DNA of 64,000 bases from Patescibacteria group bacterium (GTDB lineage Bacteria; Patescibacteriota; Patescibacteriia; Magasanikbacterales; JBBTQS01): positions 467,901 to 531,900 of the forward strand of contig JBBTQS010000001.1 of assembly GCA_038065555.1 (NCBI GenBank), given 5' to 3'. The notes beneath the pieces were generated by a model. It was not told the origin of the DNA and searched no databases. It was given only the letters and a program-made list of their open reading frames with translations. The position numbers and the translations under genes are program-made. This document shows positions 26,007 to 47,999 of the stretch, one piece after another. The stretch's first letter is position 1, and each line of letters starts with the position of its first letter.

Positions 26007-27449
26007 ATGTCAGAAATGACACCAGGAGCAGAGGGTTTTGAATCCTTGGGTATTGATGCGCACATTCTTGAGCGCCTTACCAAACTCAAGTACACCACAC
26101 CAACGCCAATTCAGGCTGCTGCAATCCCCGTCGCCCTCACAGGCACAGACGTTGTCGGTATTGCACAAACAGGTACAGGCAAGACCCTCGCCTTTGGTGT
26201 TCCAATGTTGCAAACACTCGCAAAGTCCGAGAAAGGCCAAGGCCTCATTCTCGTACCAACACGCGAACTTGCACTGCAAGTTGAAGAAACCATGATCAAG
26301 ATCGGTTCCCATTTTGGGCTTGTCACTGCGGTACTGATCGGTGGTGCTTCTATGCAAATGCAGATTCGCAACTTGCGCCGCAATCCGCACGTGATCATCG
26401 CGACCCCAGGTCGCCTTGCAGATCACTTGCAGCAGCGCACGTGCTCATTGCAAGATATCGAAATCGTCGTTCTCGACGAAGCCGATCGCATGTTTGATAT
26501 TGGGTTCGCTCCACAAATCAAGAAAATCATGGCGCAGGTGCCGACAGAACGTCAGACGTTCCTCTTCTCCGCAACCATGCCACCAGCTATTGCTGCCATT
26601 GCTGCAGCGTATATGCGCTCCCCGAAACGTATTGAAGTAGCACCAGCTGGTACCAGTTCTTCGCAAGTAACACAGTCTCTCTACGTGGTGTCCAAAGACC
26701 ACAAGACGTCCCTCCTCGATCACCTTCTCCGCAAGCACGAGGGCACGGTGCTCGTCTTCTCTCGCACCAAACACGGCGCTCGCAAGATCGCCATGGCAAT
26801 CCGTGCGATGGGTCACACTTCTGTAGAAATTCACTCCAATCGTTCACTTGCGCAGCGCAAAGAAGCGCTTGCAGGATTCAAATCCGGTAAGTATCGCATC
26901 CTTGTCGCAACCGACATCGCCGCTCGCGGTATTGACGTAACAGGAATCACCCTCGTGGTGAACTTCGACCTCCCAGATAATAGCGAGGACTACGTACACC
27001 GCATCGGTCGAACCGGTCGCGCAGGCATGTCTGGTCTTGCAATCTCATTTGCACAGCCAGATCAGCGCAATGATGTTCGCGACATTGAACGCCTTATTCG
27101 TAAGTCGATCCATGTTGAAGAACTTCCAGACAACTTGCCCGCTCCTATTCGTCTCCCTGCAGAACCTCGCGCCGAATTCTCACGCCATGAGCGTGGTGGA
27201 TCTGGCGGCGGTTACGGCGGCGGACGCTCGGGTTCTGGTGGTCGCGGCGGTTCACGCGGTGGCTACGGTGGCGGCAACGGCGGTGGCGAACGAGAATATC
27301 GTCGCCCTACCAGTGGCAGCACCAGCCGCGCTCGCTCCAATAGCTACGGTTCGCAAGGCGGATTCGGTAGCAGCCGTGGCGGTGGCGCTGGATTTGGCGG
27401 CGGTTCTCGTCGTCCAAAGGAAGCACCGAAGTTCACGCGTCACTTCTAA
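26007..27449 (+). CDS. DEAD-box ATP-dependent RNA helicase with a Gly/Arg-rich (RGG-type) C-terminal tail
   Basis: Q-motif region, AQTGTGKT, DEAD, SAT and HRIGRTGRAG. The C-terminal ~90 aa are GGYGGGRSGSGGRGGSRGGYGGGNGG... Confidence 0.95.
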   Translation: MSEMTPGAEGFESLGIDAHILERLTKLKYTTPTPIQAAAIPVALTGTDVVGIAQTGTGKTLAFGVPMLQTLAKSEKGQGLILVPTRELALQVEETMIKIGSHFGLVTAVLIGGASMQMQIRNLRRNPHVIIATPGRLADHLQQRTCSLQDIEIVVLDEADRMFDIGFAPQIKKIMAQVPTERQTFLFSATMPPAIAAIAAAYMRSPKRIEVAPAGTSSSQVTQSLYVVSKDHKTSLLDHLLRKHEGTVLVFSRTKHGARKIAMAIRAMGHTSVEIHSNRSLAQRKEALAGFKSGKYRILVATDIAARGIDVTGITLVVNFDLPDNSEDYVHRIGRTGRAGMSGLAISFAQPDQRNDVRDIERLIRKSIHVEELPDNLPAPIRLPAEPRAEFSRHERGGSGGGYGGGRSGSGGRGGSRGGYGGGNGGGEREYRRPTSGSTSRARSNSYGSQGGFGSSRGGGAGFGGGSRRPKEAPKFTRHF

Positions 27450-27463
27450 AGTGCGCTAGCACA

Positions 27464-27540
27464 AACACCCCCAATTTATTCTTTCCAAGTCCTCCCCGTA
27501 AACTGAGGTCCGGGCTTGGAAAGAATAAATTGGGGGTGTT
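27464..27540. repeat. Long hairpin element, copy 1: a 26-bp perfect stem flanking the conserved 25-nt core TCCTCCCCGTAAACTGAGGTCCGGG, followed by TTTTTATT. It probably also serves as the bidirectional terminator for the helicase and corA.
   Basis: Arms AACACCCCCAATTTATTCTTTCCAAG / CTTGGAAAGAATAAATTGGGGGTGTT are exact reverse complements. The same core recurs at 38287 and, inverted, at 39163. Confidence 0.8.
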
Positions 27541-27554
27541 TTTATTACTGCACG

Positions 27555-28475
27555 TTAGAGCCAACGTTTGCGCGTAAAGATTGCGAGGAGGAAGATGGTG
27601 CTCACGAATGTGATCGCGATAATGAACGTGAAAGCCTGTGGATGTGATGCAAATGGTAGCGCGACGTTCATGCCGAAGAGACTGGTGACAAATGTTGGCA
27701 CCATGATGAGAATCGTGAGCGCAGTGAGCAACTTGATCACGCGATTCAATGAGTTGGTCATGATCGTTGAATACGCTTCGCGGATGTTGCGCATGTTCTG
27801 CACGTCGGCGTTGGCGTTCTCGATAATCTGACCAGCGCTCAACTCCAAGTCCTCAACAAGATCCTGGTCCTGTTCGTAGAGCGGAACATACTTGCCAGAG
27901 AGCAGTGCGTTGAGCATCGCACGACCTGGGACAAGTGCCGCAACGAAGTCGATGAGCACGCGCTCGAATGTCACGAACTGGATAATATCTCGGTCAGAGA
28001 CTGCGTGCAGATCAACACTCACAGAGCGAACCTTGCGACTAATCGATGTCAGGAATCCTGAGTAGCGCGCGAGCATTTGATTGAACAACTGCAATATGAA
28101 ATTCACCTTTTGTGTTGTAATGAGACTTGAAGCATTTGTCTGAAATGCCGTGAGCATCGGGATAGGTCGTGGTGCAATCGTGATCACGCCTTCAGCTGTG
28201 TGCACAATCAGAAGTGGCATTGTTGAGATGTGCTCCCCGTCTTGTACCGGCACACGCATGAAGAGGTAGATGTTGCCATCCTCTACTTCCAGACGCGGAA
28301 CTTCGTATGGATCGAGCGCGTCACGCAAATGACCGAGCTCGAGTTTGTGTTTTGCAACGAGCATTTCCAGCTCGTTCTCTGTAGGAGTCTCTGCGTACAA
28401 CCACGCACCAGCCTTCCAACTCGTGAGTGTACGCAAATCAGTATCCTTGATGGATTTGTAGAAGTATTTGATCAT
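27555..28475 (-). CDS. corA: CorA-family magnesium/cobalt transporter
   Basis: Two C-terminal TM helices with the GMN signature (LFGMNV). 306 aa. Confidence 0.85.
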   Translation of the reverse strand: MIKYFYKSIKDTDLRTLTSWKAGAWLYAETPTENELEMLVAKHKLELGHLRDALDPYEVPRLEVEDGNIYLFMRVPVQDGEHISTMPLLIVHTAEGVITIAPRPIPMLTAFQTNASSLITTQKVNFILQLFNQMLARYSGFLTSISRKVRSVSVDLHAVSDRDIIQFVTFERVLIDFVAALVPGRAMLNALLSGKYVPLYEQDQDLVEDLELSAGQIIENANADVQNMRNIREAYSTIMTNSLNRVIKLLTALTILIMVPTFVTSLFGMNVALPFASHPQAFTFIIAITFVSTIFLLAIFTRKRWL

Positions 28476-37156: not shown

Positions 37157-38215
37157 TTAATCGAAAAGAATTGACATCGGCAATGCTATCACGTCATTGA
37201 TATTCTGGCAACCAGTCATGACCTGCACCATTCGGTCAATTCCCAGAGCAATTCCAGAGGATTCTGGCATTCCAGCGCGCAGCGCGTCGATGAATTCACG
37301 ATCTACTGCAAAGACATCTTTGCCAGCAAGCCGTCGCTCCTCGCGCTCCAACTCAAGGCGTCGCAACTGCTCATGGTGATCCGTGAGTTCTCCAAACGCA
37401 TTGGCCAACTCCATCCCGCTCACATACAACTCAAACCGCTGCGCATAGCGTGGATCATTTGGCGCCAATCGCGCCAGCGCCGCCATCTCCGCAGGATATC
37501 CATACAAGAACACAGGACCAGACTCCGCAGTACCAATATTCGGTTCAATCTCATTCAAGAAAACGCGATAGAACAAATCTGCGTACGACTCAGTCTCAGC
37601 AGCAGCGTACCCCTTCTCACGACACAACACATACATCGCCTCACGCGTCAGGTACTGCTCGAGATCAACATTTGCATACTGTCGCCACACATCACGCATG
37701 TGCAATCGCGCCCAAGGCTGACGGAGAATCCGCGATTGCTCAATGGCTGGCCGAACTGCATCCGCGTGCGGCCCATCAAGTAATGCATTGGCCACAGAGA
37801 CGAAGAGTGATTCAGTATCATCCATGATCGCCCAGTAATCTGCCCCAGCACGATACCACTCAATCATCATGAACTCTGGATTGTGTGTTCCGCCGAATGA
37901 CTCATTGTCACGAAAAACTTTTTGCATGGAGAAGATGCGCTGCTCTCCTGCTGCAAGCAACTTCTTCATGGTGTACTCAGGCGAGGTATGCAAATACCCC
38001 GTGCGCTCCACATTCTTGTCATCACGCACAGCGATCCGCATCGGCGACAAATACGGCTCCTGCCCCGGAAGTTGCAAGATCGTAGGCGCATCAACTTCAA
38101 CAAATGACTGCAACCAGAAAAATGTGCGGGTCAACCGCATGATCTCCGATCGAATCTGCAAATTCTGCCGCACGCGGCGAAGGTGTTCCAGGTGGCGCAT
38201 ACGCATTGTATTCAA
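37157..38215 (-). CDS. epmA: EF-P lysine lysyltransferase EpmA (PoxA/GenX), a truncated class II LysRS paralogue
   Basis: Class II motifs (…FRDNESFGGTHNPEFMMIEWY… and …GMPESSGIALGIDRMVQVMTG) without an anticodon-binding domain. It lies immediately upstream of efp. Confidence 0.8.
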   Translation of the reverse strand: MNTMRMRHLEHLRRVRQNLQIRSEIMRLTRTFFWLQSFVEVDAPTILQLPGQEPYLSPMRIAVRDDKNVERTGYLHTSPEYTMKKLLAAGEQRIFSMQKVFRDNESFGGTHNPEFMMIEWYRAGADYWAIMDDTESLFVSVANALLDGPHADAVRPAIEQSRILRQPWARLHMRDVWRQYANVDLEQYLTREAMYVLCREKGYAAAETESYADLFYRVFLNEIEPNIGTAESGPVFLYGYPAEMAALARLAPNDPRYAQRFELYVSGMELANAFGELTDHHEQLRRLELEREERRLAGKDVFAVDREFIDALRAGMPESSGIALGIDRMVQVMTGCQNINDVIALPMSILFD

Positions 38216-38261
38216 TTACGAGGTAAGTGAACCACGGGGGTGGGAACAATGCAACACAGCG

Positions 38262-38336
38262 AAGCCAAGCAAAGCTCTTTTCCCAGTCCTCCCCGTAAAC
38301 TGAGGTCCGGGCTGGGAAAAGAGCTTTGCTTGGCTT
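38262..38336. repeat. Long hairpin element, copy 2: a 25-bp perfect stem (AAGCCAAGCAAAGCTCTTTTCCCAG / CTGGGAAAAGAGCTTTGCTTGGCTT) around the identical 25-nt core.
   Basis: It sits in the divergent intergenic region between epmA and the 38443 gene, which is not a terminator position. Confidence 0.8.
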
Positions 38337-38442
38337 TACCGTATCGTCACGTTCACACTCCATAGACACTCACCGCGCACTTTGATATAGTCCTCCCTCG
38401 CACCCATGCGAGCAACCACTAGAGAAAGGAAGCATCGAACTC

Positions 38443-39018: not shown

Positions 39019-39132
39019 CGCGCGTCACGCGCTCTCAGGTCTCAACATGACGCCATCGGCTCCTCACGGTCCCGATGGCGTTCGTCTTTTCTGAAGGGTG
39101 TTTTGCTTTGCCGACGCACAACTAGTGATGTA

Positions 39133-39216
39133 GCCAAACCCCTCCAGTACTTCGTGAGCAAACCGGACCTCAGTTAACGGGGAGGATTTGTGAATGAAGT
39201 GCTGGAGGGGTTTGGC
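39133..39216. repeat. Long hairpin element, copy 3: 30-bp arms with 5 mismatches (3 of them G·U on the plus strand) around the core in inverted orientation, CCGGACCTCAGTTAACGGGGAGGA.
   Basis: It lies between two independent terminators of the convergent genes. The core differs from copies 1 and 2 by one A-to-T change. Confidence 0.75.
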
Positions 39217-39234
39217 GGCATCAGTGTTCGTGAA

Positions 39235-41855: not shown

Positions 41856-41999
41856 ACCCAGTCCCCCTGCGCATCAAGCGCATGTGCACGTGACTAACGA
41901 ATGATTCGTCAGTGCGAGATTCTTACCACGCGTGAGAAGGGACAGTCAACGCCAGCGTACCAATTCCAATCGCACTTGCAGTATTCAAAAATAGTTTTG

Positions 42000-42073
42000 T
42001 CGGGCTAACACGACTTGAACGTGCGACCTCATGCACCCCATGCATGCGCTCTAGCCAACTGAGCTATAGCCCG
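42000..42073 (-). tRNA. tRNA-Pro (anticodon GGG)
   Basis: Reverse strand CGGGCTA-TA-GCTC-AGTTGGCTA-GAGC-G-CATGC-ATGGGGT-GCATG-AGGTC-GCACG-TTCAAGT-CGTGT-TAGCCCG-A gives a 74-nt cloverleaf with U33, G37 and the GGG anticodon. No CCA is encoded. Confidence 0.8.
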
Positions 42074-42152
42074 TAGTAAGCGGAAAGAGGGTCCAGTCAC
42101 CAAAGGTGACGTCGACCCGAACACCAACTGTACCCACGTATCAGTTTGTACC

Positions 42153-42308
42153 GGTTTGCGGTATTTGTTTGCGAGGGGCCAACGGAGGCCGACCGGTCAG
42201 CTGTATCCGCCGCAAGGCGATACGCGTCGTCCGGTCGGCCGAGTTAGAGACGCGGTTCCACGGTTAGTGGAACCGACGTTGTACCCTCGCAAACAAATAC
42301 CGCAAACC
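42153..42308. repeat. 156-bp structured element bounded by perfect 25-bp terminal inverted repeats (GGTTTGCGGTATTTGTTTGCGAGGG), with internal nested hairpins.
   Basis: Read directly. The inner 106 nt contain GGCCGACCGG…CCGGTCGGCC and GGTTCCAC…GTGGAACC palindromes. It lies upstream of tRNA-Pro on the minus strand. Confidence 0.6.
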
Positions 42309-42451
42309 ACCATGCGATGTACCCCCGATGTATCAGGTGGGTAGCCCGTGTGTTTCGCCACGGCGATCACGATCCAGACATGAACCCGGCGGAGATAATT
42401 GTAGAGAATATCGCACAGCAGTAGCGGCTCCACCAGTATACGGATCAGTCA

Positions 42452-42482
42452 CATACAAATCAAGAACGCGCAGGAGACCTGC
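42452..42482 (-). terminator. Terminator hairpin downstream of ndk: a 14-bp perfect stem CAAGAACGCGCAGG/CCTGCGCGTTCTTG with a 3-nt loop.
   Basis: Read directly, about 20 nt after the ndk stop. On the minus strand it is followed by a T-rich ATTTGTATGT. Confidence 0.5.
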
Positions 42483-42503
42483 GCGTTCTTGGGGTGAGAG
42501 AGC

Positions 42504-42986
42504 CTAGGCTCGCTCGTCTTCGATGTATACGTGGAGATAGTCGCTCTTGTCGTAGTCGTAGATCTCTTCTTCGCGGAAGAATCGTGGCACTTCTGCCTGT
42601 GCCGCTTCGACTGAATCAGAGGTGTGGATCACGTTGCATGCTACGCTCATCGCATAGTCGCCGCGGATCGAACCTGCTTCTGCTTCGCGAGCCTTGGTAA
42701 CGCCGGTGATGAGACGCACAGCGTTGACCACGCCAAGTCCTTCCCAGCACATCACCACAACTGGCGCGCTCATCATGAAACGCTCAACACCAGGGTAGAA
42801 TGATTTGCTCGCAATGTGTGCGTAGTGCTCGCGCAATACTGCTTCATCGAGGCGCATCATTTTCGTTCCTACCAACTTGAGGCCTTTGTTCTCAAATCGC
42901 GAAGTGATCTGACCTAGAAGTCCACGCTGAATAGCGTCTGGCTTCACGATCACAAGTGTTTTTTCCTTGAGTCCTGAGAATTCCAT
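42504..42986 (-). CDS. ndk: Nucleoside diphosphate kinase
   Basis: …TLVIVKPDAIQRGLLGQITSRFENKGLKLVGTKMM…NVIHTSDS… (NDK active-site His region). The start is taken at MEFSGLKEK. Confidence 0.9.
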   Translation of the reverse strand: MEFSGLKEKTLVIVKPDAIQRGLLGQITSRFENKGLKLVGTKMMRLDEAVLREHYAHIASKSFYPGVERFMMSAPVVVMCWEGLGVVNAVRLITGVTKAREAEAGSIRGDYAMSVACNVIHTSDSVEAAQAEVPRFFREEEIYDYDKSDYLHVYIEDERA

Positions 42987-46614: not shown

Positions 46615-47793
46615 ATGAACACCTTTTTTACACAGGTCAAAGTGGACAAGTCTGGCCGAGCACGCCTGGGCATCATTCACACAGATCACGGCGATATCGA
46701 AACGCCGGTTTTCATGCCCGTTGGAACACAGGCTACAGTGAAGGCGCTAGGCAATGACGATCTACTCGCTGCAGATGCTTCGATTATTCTTGGTAACACG
46801 TATCACTTGCATCTGCGTCCAGGAGAAGACCGCATCGCAGCACTTGGAGGACTCCACGCATTCATGAATTGGCAACGACCGATGCTCACTGACTCCGGTG
46901 GATTCCAGGTGTTGTCCCTCGGCGCACAGATGGCACGCAACGGTGGTGAGGATGCGAAGAATCAAATGGCGCGTATCGACGAGGACGGTGTGACATTCCG
47001 CTCACACATCGACGGATCAACACACCGATTCACCCCAGAATCCTCTATTGGTGTTCAAAAAAAACTCGGCGCAGATATTATCATGGCATTTGACGAATGC
47101 ACGCCCGATGACGCTGATCATGACTATGCGTCACGCGCCATTGGCCGTACACATCGATGGGCTGAGGAATCTGTAGCAGCATTTCAATCGATCCCGCAGG
47201 TGCATGCGCATCGACAATTTTTGTTCGGTATTATTCAGGGAGCCAACCATGCAGACTTGCGTGTGGAGTCTGCGAAGTTCATCACCGCACTCCCCTTCGA
47301 CGGCATCGCCATTGGCGGCGAATCAATTGGATACAACATGGCAGCAACGCGTGAGACACTTGATCTCCTCGCACAATATCTCCCAGAGGACAAACCACGC
47401 TACACCATGGGCGTTGGTTCCTCACCACAAGATCTCTTCGATGTTGTCGAGCGCGGTGTAGATATGTTCGACTGTGTTGCGCCAACACGACTCGCTCGCA
47501 ACGGTGCTCTCTATTCGCGCGCAGCAGGAGCCGAAAAAAAGTTTCGCATCAATATCACTAACGCGCCATTTGCCGAGGACTCGCGCCCAATCGAGGAAGG
47601 CTGCACATGCTACACCTGCCAGAATCACACACGTGCGTACCTCCACCACCTCTTTGCAGCAGACGAATTGCTCGCCATGCGTCTGGCATCAATTCACAAT
47701 GTCTTCTTCATGCTCGAGTTGATGAGAAATATCCGTGCGGCGATTGCACGAGACGAATTCCTATCATTCAAAGAGAGCTGGCAAAAATCATAG
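46615..47793 (+). CDS. tgt: Queuine tRNA-ribosyltransferase
   Basis: …GRARLGIIHTDHGDIETPVFMPVGTQATVK…LAMRLASIHN… and a C-terminal Zn-site CxCxxC…H region (CTCYTCQNHTRAYLHH). Confidence 0.93.
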   Translation: MNTFFTQVKVDKSGRARLGIIHTDHGDIETPVFMPVGTQATVKALGNDDLLAADASIILGNTYHLHLRPGEDRIAALGGLHAFMNWQRPMLTDSGGFQVLSLGAQMARNGGEDAKNQMARIDEDGVTFRSHIDGSTHRFTPESSIGVQKKLGADIIMAFDECTPDDADHDYASRAIGRTHRWAEESVAAFQSIPQVHAHRQFLFGIIQGANHADLRVESAKFITALPFDGIAIGGESIGYNMAATRETLDLLAQYLPEDKPRYTMGVGSSPQDLFDVVERGVDMFDCVAPTRLARNGALYSRAAGAEKKFRINITNAPFAEDSRPIEEGCTCYTCQNHTRAYLHHLFAADELLAMRLASIHNVFFMLELMRNIRAAIARDEFLSFKESWQKS

Positions 47794-47970
47794 GCACTAA
47801 ATCCTCGGAGCACAACGTCCCATTCCCTCACCAGGAATGGGCGTCTCGTTCTCGGGCAGCCAGATAACGCTTCACGCCTTGCGGCGCGTACTGCTGGCTG
47901 GCTACCCTCCGAAAGTCTCCGAGAATTCAGTGCCTATGATTTTTGCCAGCTGCCACTGATTGATAGGTAC

Positions 47971-47999
47971 TTGACACGTGCAATCACCCCTGGTAGAGT
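47971..47999 (+). promoter_or_regulatory. Sigma-70-like promoter for the 48022 gene: TTGACA, 17-nt spacer, TAGAGT.
   Basis: Read directly. It is followed by RBS AAGGAGGGAAG 6 nt before the ATG. Confidence 0.55.

What the first reader, a model, noticed from the sequence alone, without database searches (positions are those of the whole stretch)
42074..42503. 156-bp element with perfect 25-bp terminal inverted repeats and nested hairpins upstream of tRNA-Pro
GGTTTGCGGTATTTGTTTGCGAGGG at 42153-42177 and its exact reverse complement at 42284-42308 flank 106 nt. That interior is itself highly structured, with GGCCGACCGG/CCGGTCGGCC and GGTTCCAC/GTGGAACC palindromes. The perfect TIRs suggest a recently inserted miniature element or a structured ncRNA. 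It lies between the ndk terminator and the tRNA-Pro gene, in the tRNA's 5' region on the minus strand.
Basis: seen in the sequence. Interest (0 to 1): 0.5.

Follow-up and report, generated by a model that had tools for sequence, protein, structure and literature searches.

The report
Y-shaped nested palindrome family in Patescibacteria
The 156-bp hairpin upstream of tRNA-Pro is real, but it is not a classical miniature transposon: it is one copy of a rare, undescribed family in ultra-small groundwater bacteria, built from a conserved 106-nt Y-shaped core that sits between inverted copies of the neighbouring host DNA.

Summary
A perfect 25-bp inverted repeat (42153-42177 / 42284-42308) encloses 106 nt with two nested hairpins. 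The 25-mer occurs nowhere else. The conserved part is the 106-nt core. A second copy lies at 47811-47916, also exactly 106 nt, between unrelated 72-nt arms. Further copies occur at two other loci in related and unrelated Patescibacteria. Junction nucleotides are conserved and all three helices covary (26 of 41 pairs). Almost every pair is Watson-Crick, so the acting strand, and RNA versus DNA, stay unresolved. Relatives lack the element at both window loci. In both cases the gene-side arm is native host sequence and the other arm is an inverted copy of it. At the first locus the native arm is the 3' trailer of an unannotated conserved ncRNA. At the second it is the last 55 nt of tgt. In one lineage the second core is flipped between its arms, and the arms evolve in concert. 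There is no Rfam, phage or plasmid match, and no transposase or reverse transcriptase nearby. Best reading: a non-autonomous insertional palindrome resembling REP elements and MITEs, passively co-transcribed with tRNA-Pro. How it moves is unknown.

The parts
42284..42308 (-). Element A, native arm. On the minus strand this is the 5' arm, GGTTTGCGGTATTTGTTTGCGAGGG. Its first 9-10 nt form the 3' end of the upstream ncRNA and the rest is that RNA's U-rich trailer.
   Evidence: GGTTTGCGG is present in L016, which lacks the element. The whole arm aligns with native spacer sequence in outgroup L123.
42178..42283 (-). Element A, 106-nt conserved core, a three-way junction. Read on the minus strand: UACA / P2 / CUC / P3 / GC.
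   Evidence: It aligns without gaps to the core of element B. Covariance-model score is 158.5 bits. Covariation is shown.
42153..42177 (-). Element A, tRNA-side arm. It is an exact inverted copy of 42284-42308 and is inferred to be a duplicate of the host flank.
   Evidence: It is absent from L016 and from L123/L124.
42247..42283 (-). P2 module: short hairpin GGTTCCAC/GTGGAACC (42254-42274) with conserved flanks. On the minus strand these read ACAACGUC ... GCGUCUC, with a CGTC tag and a bulged U.
   Evidence: ACG/CGU and C/G at the base of the hairpin are invariant in 10 of 10 sequences, and five of the pairs above them show changes on both sides.
42181..42246 (-). P3 module: long hairpin GGCCGACCGG/CCGGTCGGCC (42187-42240). 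It has a 3-bp covarying base, a conserved internal loop (CUCG / CUCCG on the minus strand), and a tip CGCC-UUGC-GGCG (42208-42219), which reads as a GCAA loop on the plus strand.
42300..42428 (-). Unannotated conserved structured ncRNA directly upstream of the element. Its ends are approximate. Its 3' end overlaps the native arm.
   Evidence: It is nearly invariant across window, L010 and L016. It is conserved next to ndk in L123 and L125. 17 of 40 pairs are compensatory and many are G-U. No Rfam match.
42435..42463 (-). Promoter-like site TTGATT-17-TATACT. It is inferred to drive the ncRNA, element A and tRNA-Pro as one transcript.
   Evidence: Both hexamers are conserved in L010 and L016. 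No other minus-strand promoter-like site lies before the tRNA.
41999..42073 (-). tRNA-Pro(GGG), 79 nt downstream of the element on the minus strand.
   Evidence: 60 bits
42461..42491 (-). ndk intrinsic terminator hairpin, a perfect 14-bp stem.
   Evidence: (I2)
47811..47916 (+). Element B, 106-nt core. This is the second family member in the window.
   Evidence: 157.9 bits
47739..47810 (+). Element B, native arm: the last 55 nt of the tgt coding sequence (stop codon at 47791-47793) plus 17 nt.
   Evidence: The Pfam TGT domain reaches residue 391 of 392. The C-terminus is homologous to tgt in L010 and L016.
47917..47988 (+). Element B, inverted copy of 47739-47810 (59 of 72 Watson-Crick pairs, with the inner ~35 nt nearly perfect). 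It is absent from empty sites in relatives.

Best explanation
Element A is one copy of a small family of nested palindromes restricted to Patescibacteria. The unit of the family is a 106-nt Y-shaped core. It has a short hairpin tagged by CGTC, a long hairpin, conserved junction and internal-loop nucleotides, and freely covarying stems. I read it as a non-autonomous, selfish insertion of the same broad kind as REP elements and MITEs. It lands immediately 3' of a transcription unit. Shown: the core is inserted relative to relatives that lack it. The long 'terminal inverted repeat' is not element sequence. It is the native upstream flank plus an inverted copy of that flank on the far side of the core. 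Inferred: the inverted copy was made at insertion or repair by fold-back DNA synthesis. In this model the compact core brings its 3' end next to its 5' end, so the 3' end can prime copying of the upstream flank. Afterwards the two arms recombine or gene-convert at the DNA level. That keeps them perfectly complementary, lets them change in parallel, and can flip the core. In this window the copy is probably transcribed from the promoter at 42463-42435 as a spacer between a conserved ncRNA and tRNA-Pro. It would be removed during processing, with RNase P cutting at the tRNA and the 25-bp duplex serving as a natural RNase III substrate. No regulated function needs to be assumed. The mobilising enzyme is unknown and is not encoded nearby.
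For: Family and structure. A and B have cores of identical length (106 nt) that align without gaps between unrelated arms. Copies C (L108) and D (L079/L115) add two more loci. Across 10 sequences, 26 of 41 pairs change on both sides and 94% of cells are paired. Slid controls give 35-43%, and 0 of 500 shuffles reach the observed value. An independent MAFFT plus RNAalifold run gives the same Y shape, with 27 of 45 pairs compensatory.

Insertion. B is absent downstream of tgt in L010, L011, L012, L016 and L013, where the stop codon is followed within 7 nt by the next gene's promoter. A is absent in L016 and in the outgroup L123/L124, where the ncRNA is followed by a 45-nt spacer and then tRNA-Pro.

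Host-derived arms. B's left arm is genuine tgt coding sequence. A's ndk-side arm aligns to the outgroup's native spacer.

DNA-level behaviour. Core helices have 364 Watson-Crick, 10 G-U and 6 A-C pairs. The adjacent bona fide ncRNA is rich in G-U pairs. The inner ~35 nt of B's arms are nearly perfect within each lineage yet differ in many positions between window and L004, with both arms changing in parallel. The B core is inverted in L004.

Position. At all 4 loci the element abuts the 3' end of a gene and has the same orientation relative to it.

Possible spread. D sits in a MAG labelled Saccharibacteria and recurs in a contig (L115) from the same aquifer well, Hainich H41, as contigs matching the window's ndk locus. 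It shares the covarying GUU/AAA base of P3 with B and C.

Transcription. The promoter-like site is conserved and no other one lies before the tRNA.
Against: No transposase, integrase, HUH enzyme or reverse transcriptase appears among the 30 window ORFs scanned or in the called genes of the related loci. Copy number is low: two in 64 kb and none in a further 20 kb. Only three to four independent loci came from two very large collection scans, though the exact-match pattern was strict. No clear target-site duplication was found. The direct repeat flanking A is marginal, with 13 of 500 shuffles scoring as well. Strongly conserved junction nucleotides and helices kept intact at about 35% divergence are also what a functional RNA would show. 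Hairpin tips read G-N-N-A (GCAA, GUGA, GUAA, GAUA, GACA) on the strand opposite to the one co-transcribed with neighbouring genes. This explanation does not account for that. The fold-back step is pure inference. The L004 flip rests on a single short-read contig.
Confidence: 0.45

Rival explanations
1. It is a new class of functional structured RNA. It could be a cis-acting 3'-end module for stabilisation, termination or processing, or a small trans-acting RNA. The long closing stem would be free to vary, and the conserved three-way junction would bind a protein or ligand. Presence or absence among relatives would reflect gene gain and loss, not mobility.
For: Junction and internal-loop nucleotides are invariant while all helices covary. 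The family persists at the orthologous locus across lineages of 75-87% local nucleotide identity. At 4 of 4 loci it directly follows a gene in the same orientation, so it would be co-transcribed. In locus C the closing stem ends in a T-run, like an intrinsic terminator. Hairpin tips are G-N-N-A on one strand.
Against: G-U pairs make up only about 2.5% of pairs and are no commoner than A-C (10 versus 6). The neighbouring true ncRNA has many G-U pairs. The G-N-N-A strand is the one not co-directional with the flanking genes. A 72-nt arm copied from a coding sequence, a flipped core and concerted arm evolution are DNA-level events. There is no Rfam match even at E-values of 5-10.
Confidence: 0.25
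2. It is a host DNA-level device: an invertible segment (inverton), a recombination site or a cruciform-forming site. The inverted arms would be the recombination substrates, and the orientation of the core would matter for neighbouring gene expression or replication.
For: The core of B has opposite orientation in L004 between the same arms. The arms evolve in concert. The helices are almost purely Watson-Crick, so both strands and a cruciform are equally possible.
Against: Only one flip was seen among about 14 assembled copies, and it separates lineages of about 87% identity rather than variants within a population. No invertase or recombinase gene is nearby. The arms differ at every locus, so no common recombinase site exists. 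The core holds no promoter-like site. An inverton does not need covarying internal hairpins.
Confidence: 0.12
3. This is the first reader's main reading: a classical, recently inserted MITE defined by its perfect 25-bp terminal inverted repeats and mobilised by a transposase that recognises those ends.
For: The repeat is perfect and about the right size, and the site is polymorphic among relatives. In the B/C subfamily the innermost 7-8 bp next to the core (CTCGGAG/CTCCGAG) are shared between unrelated loci and may travel with the core.
Against: The 25-mer has no other copy. The element has no BLAST match in phages or plasmids. The ndk-side arm is native host sequence. The arms are unrelated between A, B, C and D. 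The insertion is old, being shared with L010.
Confidence: 0.05
4. It is a retron-like or other reverse-transcriptase template RNA. The closing stem would correspond to a1/a2, the short hairpin to msr and the long hairpin to msd.
For: The architecture matches: a closing inverted repeat of variable sequence, then a short and a long hairpin.
Against: No reverse-transcriptase domain appears in any called gene within 10 kb at any locus. There are several copies per genome next to housekeeping genes. No conserved G lies at the stem/core boundary, where the core begins with U or C followed by ACA.
Confidence: 0.04
5. It is a tRNA-Pro leader or regulatory structure.
For: It lies in the inferred tRNA-Pro precursor and is conserved, with covariation, at this locus in L004 and L010.
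Against: L016 and L123/L124 have the same ncRNA and tRNA-Pro without it. Other copies lie beside tgt, 3' of another tRNA, and 3' of a membrane-protein gene.
Confidence: 0.02

Closest known systems
REP / BIME elements, especially the CGTC-tagged REP super-family (Di Nocera et al. 2013, PMC3733652)
   Same: Both are small extragenic palindromes placed mainly 3' of genes between co-directional ORFs, and probably transcribed. Both are heterogeneous in stem sequence and can fold into larger hairpins. CGTC REPs have no known dedicated transposase. The short hairpin here carries a CGTC head, a 6-9 bp stem and mostly a 5-nt loop.
   Different: Here the unit is a 106-nt three-way junction, not a 20-40 bp hairpin. 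The stems start with G or C, not A/T. There is no CCA tail. The CGTC is partly base-paired. Copy number is low. The outer arms are copies of host flanks.
Bacterial MITE-like palindromic repeats that fold as RNA hairpins (Correia/NEMIS, ERIC, RUP). This comparison rests on my own knowledge.
   Same: They are 100-160 bp non-coding insertions, co-transcribed with neighbouring genes. Their long terminal stem forms a potential RNase III site. They are polymorphic between strains.
   Different: Those families are defined by conserved terminal inverted repeats and a target-site duplication, and they have tens to hundreds of copies. Here the ends are locus-specific and the interior is the conserved part. 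No target-site duplication was found.
Parvovirus/AAV inverted terminal repeat: a T-shaped hairpin with flip and flop forms. This comparison rests on my own knowledge.
   Same: Both have a long stem closing two small internal palindromes. The interior is found in two inverted configurations. Self-priming from a folded 3' end is the mechanism I infer for making the arms.
   Different: This element is not at a replicon end and has no Rep protein or nick site. It sits between housekeeping genes of a bacterial chromosome. The resemblance is architectural only.
Invertons (invertible promoters flanked by inverted repeats). This comparison rests on my own knowledge.
   Same: A short segment is flanked by inverted repeats and found in both orientations.
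   Different: There is no invertase, no promoter in the segment and no common repeat sequence. The flip was seen between lineages, not within a population.
Retron msr-msd ncRNA. This comparison rests on my own knowledge.
   Same: A closing inverted repeat of variable sequence is followed by a short hairpin and a long hairpin.
   Different: There is no adjacent reverse transcriptase and no branching G. Copies are multiple and dispersed.

Membership tests
Classical MITE | Terminal inverted repeats conserved among copies | tested here: not met
   The 25-mer is unique in the window. The arms of A, B, C and D are unrelated apart from 7-8 nt shared by B and C.
Classical MITE | Direct target-site duplication flanking the ends | tested here: inconclusive
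   There is no duplication directly at the ends. An imperfect 16-19 nt direct repeat lies 8-9 nt outside each arm, but 13 of 500 shuffles score as well.
Classical MITE | Many dispersed copies and a cognate transposase | tested here: not met
   There are two copies in 64 kb, none in 20 kb more, and few in two collection scans. No transposase domain was found in the ORFs scanned. The whole genome was not available.
CGTC-tagged REP (PMC3733652) | CGTC head next to an 8-9 bp stem with a 4-5 nt loop | tested here: met
   ACAA-CGTC precedes a 6-9 bp stem in all 10 sequences, and loops are mostly 5 nt with a range of 3-7. Unlike in REPs, the CGTC is partly paired.
CGTC-tagged REP (PMC3733652) | A/T pairs at the first two stem positions, and an unpaired CCA-like tail | tested here: not met
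   Stems begin GG, GC, CC or GA. The 3' flank is GCGUCUC (compared).
CGTC-tagged REP (PMC3733652) | High copy number | tested here: not met
Inverton | Both orientations present, and a site-specific invertase | tested here: inconclusive
   One flipped copy was found in a different lineage. No invertase appears in the called genes. Heterogeneity within a population cannot be tested with these tools.
Retron | Reverse-transcriptase gene adjacent to the ncRNA | tested here: not met
   No reverse-transcriptase domain was found within 10 kb at the A/B loci. No ORF of reverse-transcriptase size lies next to D.
Integron attC | R''/R' core sites (RYYYAAC ... GTTRRRY) and an integron integrase | tested here: not met
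   Reading the sequence gives GGCCAAC ... GTTGTAC, which does not fit the consensus, and the motif is not kept in B. No integrase was found.
Any Rfam 15 RNA family | Covariance-model match | tested here: not met
   Nothing overlaps the elements at the E-value limits used: E <= 10 for A, and E <= 5 for B, C and D. Nothing in the whole window reaches a gathering score.
Functional structured RNA (generic) | Compensatory covariation, with G-U tolerated on the transcribed strand only | tested here: inconclusive
   Covariation is strong. However, counts are 364 Watson-Crick, 10 G-U and 6 A-C pairs, with no clear strand bias.

The most novel reading that the evidence does not exclude
The cores are a new kind of structure-specific mobile element in Candidate Phyla Radiation (Patescibacteria) bacteria. 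Instead of making a direct target-site duplication, the element copies the upstream host flank in inverted orientation by self-primed fold-back synthesis. That builds a long, perfectly paired hairpin around itself, which then flips and homogenises. The 24-nt 'small core' hairpins in the same window would be a second element using the same mechanism.
Probability: 0.18. Interest if true: 0.8.

Novelty: new variant of a known kind. Interest (0 to 1): 0.58.

Why it matters
Patescibacteria have tiny, streamlined genomes, and very little is known about their non-coding DNA. This window holds a previously undescribed family of structured palindromes inserted between housekeeping genes. Their long 'inverted repeats' are made from the host's own flanking sequence, including the end of a coding gene. 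If the inferred fold-back origin is right, it is a way of building long hairpins and potential double-stranded RNA de novo, and it leaves a signature unlike that of known bacterial transposons. On the practical side, these palindromes can flip, can break short-read assemblies and create spurious ORF calls. They also show that a perfect terminal repeat is not by itself evidence of a transposon end. The work also exposed an unannotated conserved ncRNA next to ndk in this clade.

Tried and rejected
1. Rfam scans of A, B, C, D and the whole window found only tRNAs and chance hits.

2. BLAST of the 181-nt region against phage and plasmid collections found nothing. Motif scans of viral contigs gave 2 hits, both rejected by the covariance model.

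3. The genome and metagenome motif scans returned 79 and 20 stretches. All but 2 and 3 of these were chance hits, mostly in contigs whose record titles name high-GC taxa, and did not score with the model.

4. A group II intron domain 5 reading of the long hairpin was considered because of an AGC...GNRA resemblance. I rejected it by hand, because the pairing register and bulge do not fit and Rfam gives no intron hit.

5. By reading the sequence against consensus motifs recalled from memory, I found no hammerhead, twister or hairpin ribozyme core motif and no integron attC core sites.

6. 'Hypervariable stems' were considered when L009 (about 95% identical to the window overall, about 97% outside the core) showed a completely different core. 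I rejected this. L009 carries an L004-type core as a recombination tract, and the core's divergence of about 35% matches that of the fast-evolving neighbouring gene.

7. I tried to assign the strand from G-U versus A-C mismatches in the long arms. The apparent 6:1 bias in B follows the tgt sense strand rather than the core orientation (L004 gives 3:2), so it is uninformative.

8. A rebuilt 10-sequence model found no further copies in the window or in 20 kb beyond it.

9. Five literature searches found no description of such elements in Patescibacteria.

Full report
OBSERVATION. The finding is accurate. GGTTTGCGGTATTTGTTTGCGAGGG (42153-42177) and its exact reverse complement (42284-42308) enclose 106 nt. 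With two mismatches the repeat runs to 32 nt. The 25-mer, allowing up to 3 mismatches, occurs only at these two places in the 64-kb window, and none is expected by chance. The interior contains GGCCGACCGG/CCGGTCGGCC (42187-42196 / 42231-42240). It also contains GGTTCCAC/GTGGAACC (42254-42261 / 42267-42274). Either strand folds into the same Y shape, with z-scores of -9.8 and -11.4. tRNA-Pro(GGG) is at 41999-42073 on the minus strand, ndk is at 42504-42986 on the minus strand, and the ndk terminator is at 42461-42491.

THE CONSERVED PART IS THE INTERIOR, NOT THE ENDS. A scan of the window for inverted repeats found a second element at 47739-47988. It has 72-nt arms and, again, exactly 106 nt between them. 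Read on the minus strand for A and the plus strand for B, the two interiors align without a single gap. They share these blocks: (U/C)ACAACGUC, a short hairpin, GCGUCUC-NNN-CUCG, a long hairpin tipped by CGCC-UUGC-GGCG, and CUCCG-NNN. The stems have different sequences but keep their pairing, with 18 of 41 pairs changed on both sides. A covariance model built from the two finds only these two sites in the window, and so does a later 10-sequence model. Nothing in Rfam 15 overlaps the elements, at E up to 10 around A and up to 5 around B, C and D. At gathering scores nothing matches anywhere in the window. Phage and plasmid collections give no BLAST hit.

ORGANISM AND RELATIVES. The window's Tgt protein is identical to one from a MAG named 'Patescibacteria group bacterium', and its nearest named relatives are Magasanikbacteria. 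Contigs carrying the same ndk come from groundwater metagenomes, including well H41 of the Hainich aquifer. Motif scans of the genome and metagenome collections returned mostly chance hits in unrelated genomes. The model confirmed only a few of them. One is the orthologue of A in a lineage of about 75% local nucleotide identity (L010/L110/L043). Another is a third locus, C, directly 3' of a tRNA, with 21-nt perfect arms (L108). The last is a fourth locus, D, in a MAG labelled Saccharibacteria and in another H41 contig (L079/L115), where the long hairpin is expanded to about 130 nt. The family is therefore real but rare and, as far as the strict pattern can tell, confined to Patescibacteria.

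STRUCTURE. In a 10-sequence alignment, 94% of cells form standard pairs and 26 of 41 pairs show changes on both sides. Sliding the partners by 1-3 columns drops pairing to 35-43%, and none of 500 shuffles reaches the observed values. A structure-blind MAFFT plus RNAalifold run recovers the same three-way junction, with 27 of 45 pairs compensatory. The helices are almost entirely Watson-Crick: 364 Watson-Crick, 10 G-U and 6 A-C pairs. The conserved ncRNA next door is full of G-U pairs. This contrast makes me think the element's helices are maintained at the DNA level, or are young copies. It also means the acting strand cannot be called. The hairpin tips read GCAA, GUGA, GUAA, GAUA and GACA, with one GGAG, on the strand opposite to the one that runs with the flanking genes. 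I cannot reconcile this with the co-orientation described below.

INSERTION AND HOST-DERIVED ARMS. B is absent in L010, L011, L012, L016 and L013. There the tgt stop codon is followed within 7 nt by the TTGACA of the next gene's promoter. In the window, the left arm of B is the genuine end of tgt. The Pfam TGT domain runs to residue 391 of 392, and the C-terminus is homologous to that of relatives. The right arm is therefore an inverted copy of the last 55 coding nucleotides plus 17 nt. For A, L016 lacks the element. So do more distant relatives (L123/L124, ndk 87% identical), in which the same upstream ncRNA is followed by a 45-nt spacer and then tRNA-Pro. The ndk-side arm of A aligns with that native ncRNA end and U-rich spacer. 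The 'perfect TIR' is therefore host sequence plus its inverted duplicate. Because L010 has the element with homologous arms, the insertion is old, and L016 probably lost it. In the B/C subfamily the innermost 7-8 bp (CTCGGAG/CTCCGAG) are shared between unrelated loci and may belong to the element.

DYNAMICS. In L004 the B core lies in the opposite orientation between the same arms. This rests on one short-read contig and needs confirmation at read level. The inner ~35 nt of B's arms are almost perfectly complementary in each lineage, but they differ at many positions between window and L004. Both arms, including the last tgt codons, changed together. I first took the completely different stems of A in L009 and L004 for hypervariation. 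That was wrong. L004 is only 87% identical overall. L009, which is about 97% identical outside the core, carries an L004-type core as a recombination tract. The core's divergence of about 35% equals that of the neighbouring fast-evolving gene. So the stems drift at roughly the neutral rate while keeping their pairing, and the junction motifs stay fixed.

CONTEXT OF COPY A. Between the ndk terminator and the element lie a conserved promoter-like site (TTGATT-17-TATACT, 42463-42435) and a structured RNA of about 130 nt. That RNA is conserved next to ndk in five lineages, shows compensatory changes and has no Rfam match. No other minus-strand promoter-like site precedes tRNA-Pro. I therefore infer a single precursor made of the ncRNA, element A and tRNA-Pro. 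In L016 the ncRNA runs straight into the tRNA. At all four loci the element sits directly 3' of a gene, between co-directional genes, in the same relative orientation. The chance of that is about 1 in 8. No transposase, integrase or reverse transcriptase was found in the 30 window ORFs scanned or among the called genes of related loci.

INTERPRETATION. The best-supported reading (0.45) is a non-autonomous insertional palindrome resembling REP elements and MITEs. Its unit is the Y-shaped core. Its long stem is built from the host flank, and I propose fold-back synthesis primed by the core's 3' end as the way that stem is made. The arms then recombine with each other. In this copy the element is passively transcribed and processed out. 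The main rival (0.25) is a genuine functional RNA class. Conserved junctions and covariation fit it, but the near absence of G-U pairs, the coding-derived arm, the flip and the strand conflict do not. A DNA inversion switch or cruciform site (0.12), a retron-like template (0.04), a classical TIR-defined MITE (0.05) and a tRNA leader (0.02) fit worse.

COMPARISON WITH KNOWN SYSTEMS. The closest described kind is the REP/BIME world, in particular the CGTC-tagged REPs. These are extragenic palindromes 3' of genes, with an 8-9 bp stem, a 4-5 nt loop, a CGTC head and no known transposase (PMC3733652). The short hairpin here has the CGTC head and the right stem and loop sizes. It fails the A/T-first stem rule, the CCA tail and the copy-number criterion, and the unit is a 106-nt junction rather than a simple hairpin. 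I therefore do not file it as a member. The T-shaped, flip/flop AAV terminal repeat is an architectural analogue only. Five literature searches found no description of such elements in Patescibacteria.

VERDICT. The feature is real and statistically overwhelming. I rate it a new variant of a known kind, namely small structured palindromic repeats. It has an unusual and unexplained way of acquiring its arms. Interest is moderate to good (0.58).

Noticed in passing
window 27445-27559, 38237-38361, 39117-39232 (cores at 27490-27513 +, 38287-38310 +, 39163-39186 -): This is a second 'apex core' family. The 24-nt sequence TCCTCCCCGT(A/T)AACTGAGGTCCGG sits at the exact tip of three long, locus-specific inverted repeats with arms of 46-53 nt. 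Two of them lie between convergent genes and look like bidirectional terminators. Relatives keep the core while both arms change in parallel, or differ completely (L002). One locus lacks it in L010. No hits in viral contigs.
   Followed up: partly
window about 42300-42428, minus strand: An unannotated structured RNA of about 130 nt lies just downstream of ndk, with its own conserved promoter-like site at 42463-42435. It is conserved in at least five lineages (window, L010, L016, L123, L125), with compensatory changes and many G-U pairs. No Rfam match. In L016 it abuts tRNA-Pro directly, and in L125 no tRNA follows. Its function is unknown.
   Followed up: partly
L079:1979-2091: Right next to family member D, and just upstream of the gltX promoter, lies another Y-shaped nested palindrome (30-nt arms, two internal hairpins) with unrelated sequence. 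This architecture may be common in Patescibacteria intergenic DNA.
   Followed up: no
window 27.4-48.0 kb: All five apex-core palindromes in the window (two large, three small) lie within about 20 kb. None is in the other 44 kb, which holds the ribosomal-protein operon and glycolysis genes, nor in 10 kb beyond each end.
   Followed up: partly
L002:10989-12970, versus the window region just downstream of tRNA-Pro (about 41856-41998): A close relative (about 97% identity) carries an insertion of about 1.9 kb, with a radical-SAM gene and a 139-aa ORF, immediately downstream of tRNA-Pro. The window lacks it.
   Followed up: no
L122, L123, L124 (ndk loci of relatives): Three independent short-read contigs end 160-245 nt after ndk, within or just past the ncRNA/tRNA-Pro region. 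This may be a sign that repeats or palindromes here break assemblies.
   Followed up: no
window 38097-38363 (minus strand; equals L001:14624-14890): An 88-aa gene called in the public assembly covers the small-core hairpin at 38237-38361 and is probably a spurious ORF created by the palindrome.
   Followed up: no
window 42129-42144 and 42318-42336: An imperfect direct repeat (TGTACCCACGTATCAG / TGTACCCCCGATGTATCAG) lies 8-9 nt outside each arm of element A. Only the ndk-side copy exists in L016. The extended alignment is only marginally better than shuffles (13 of 500).
   Followed up: partly
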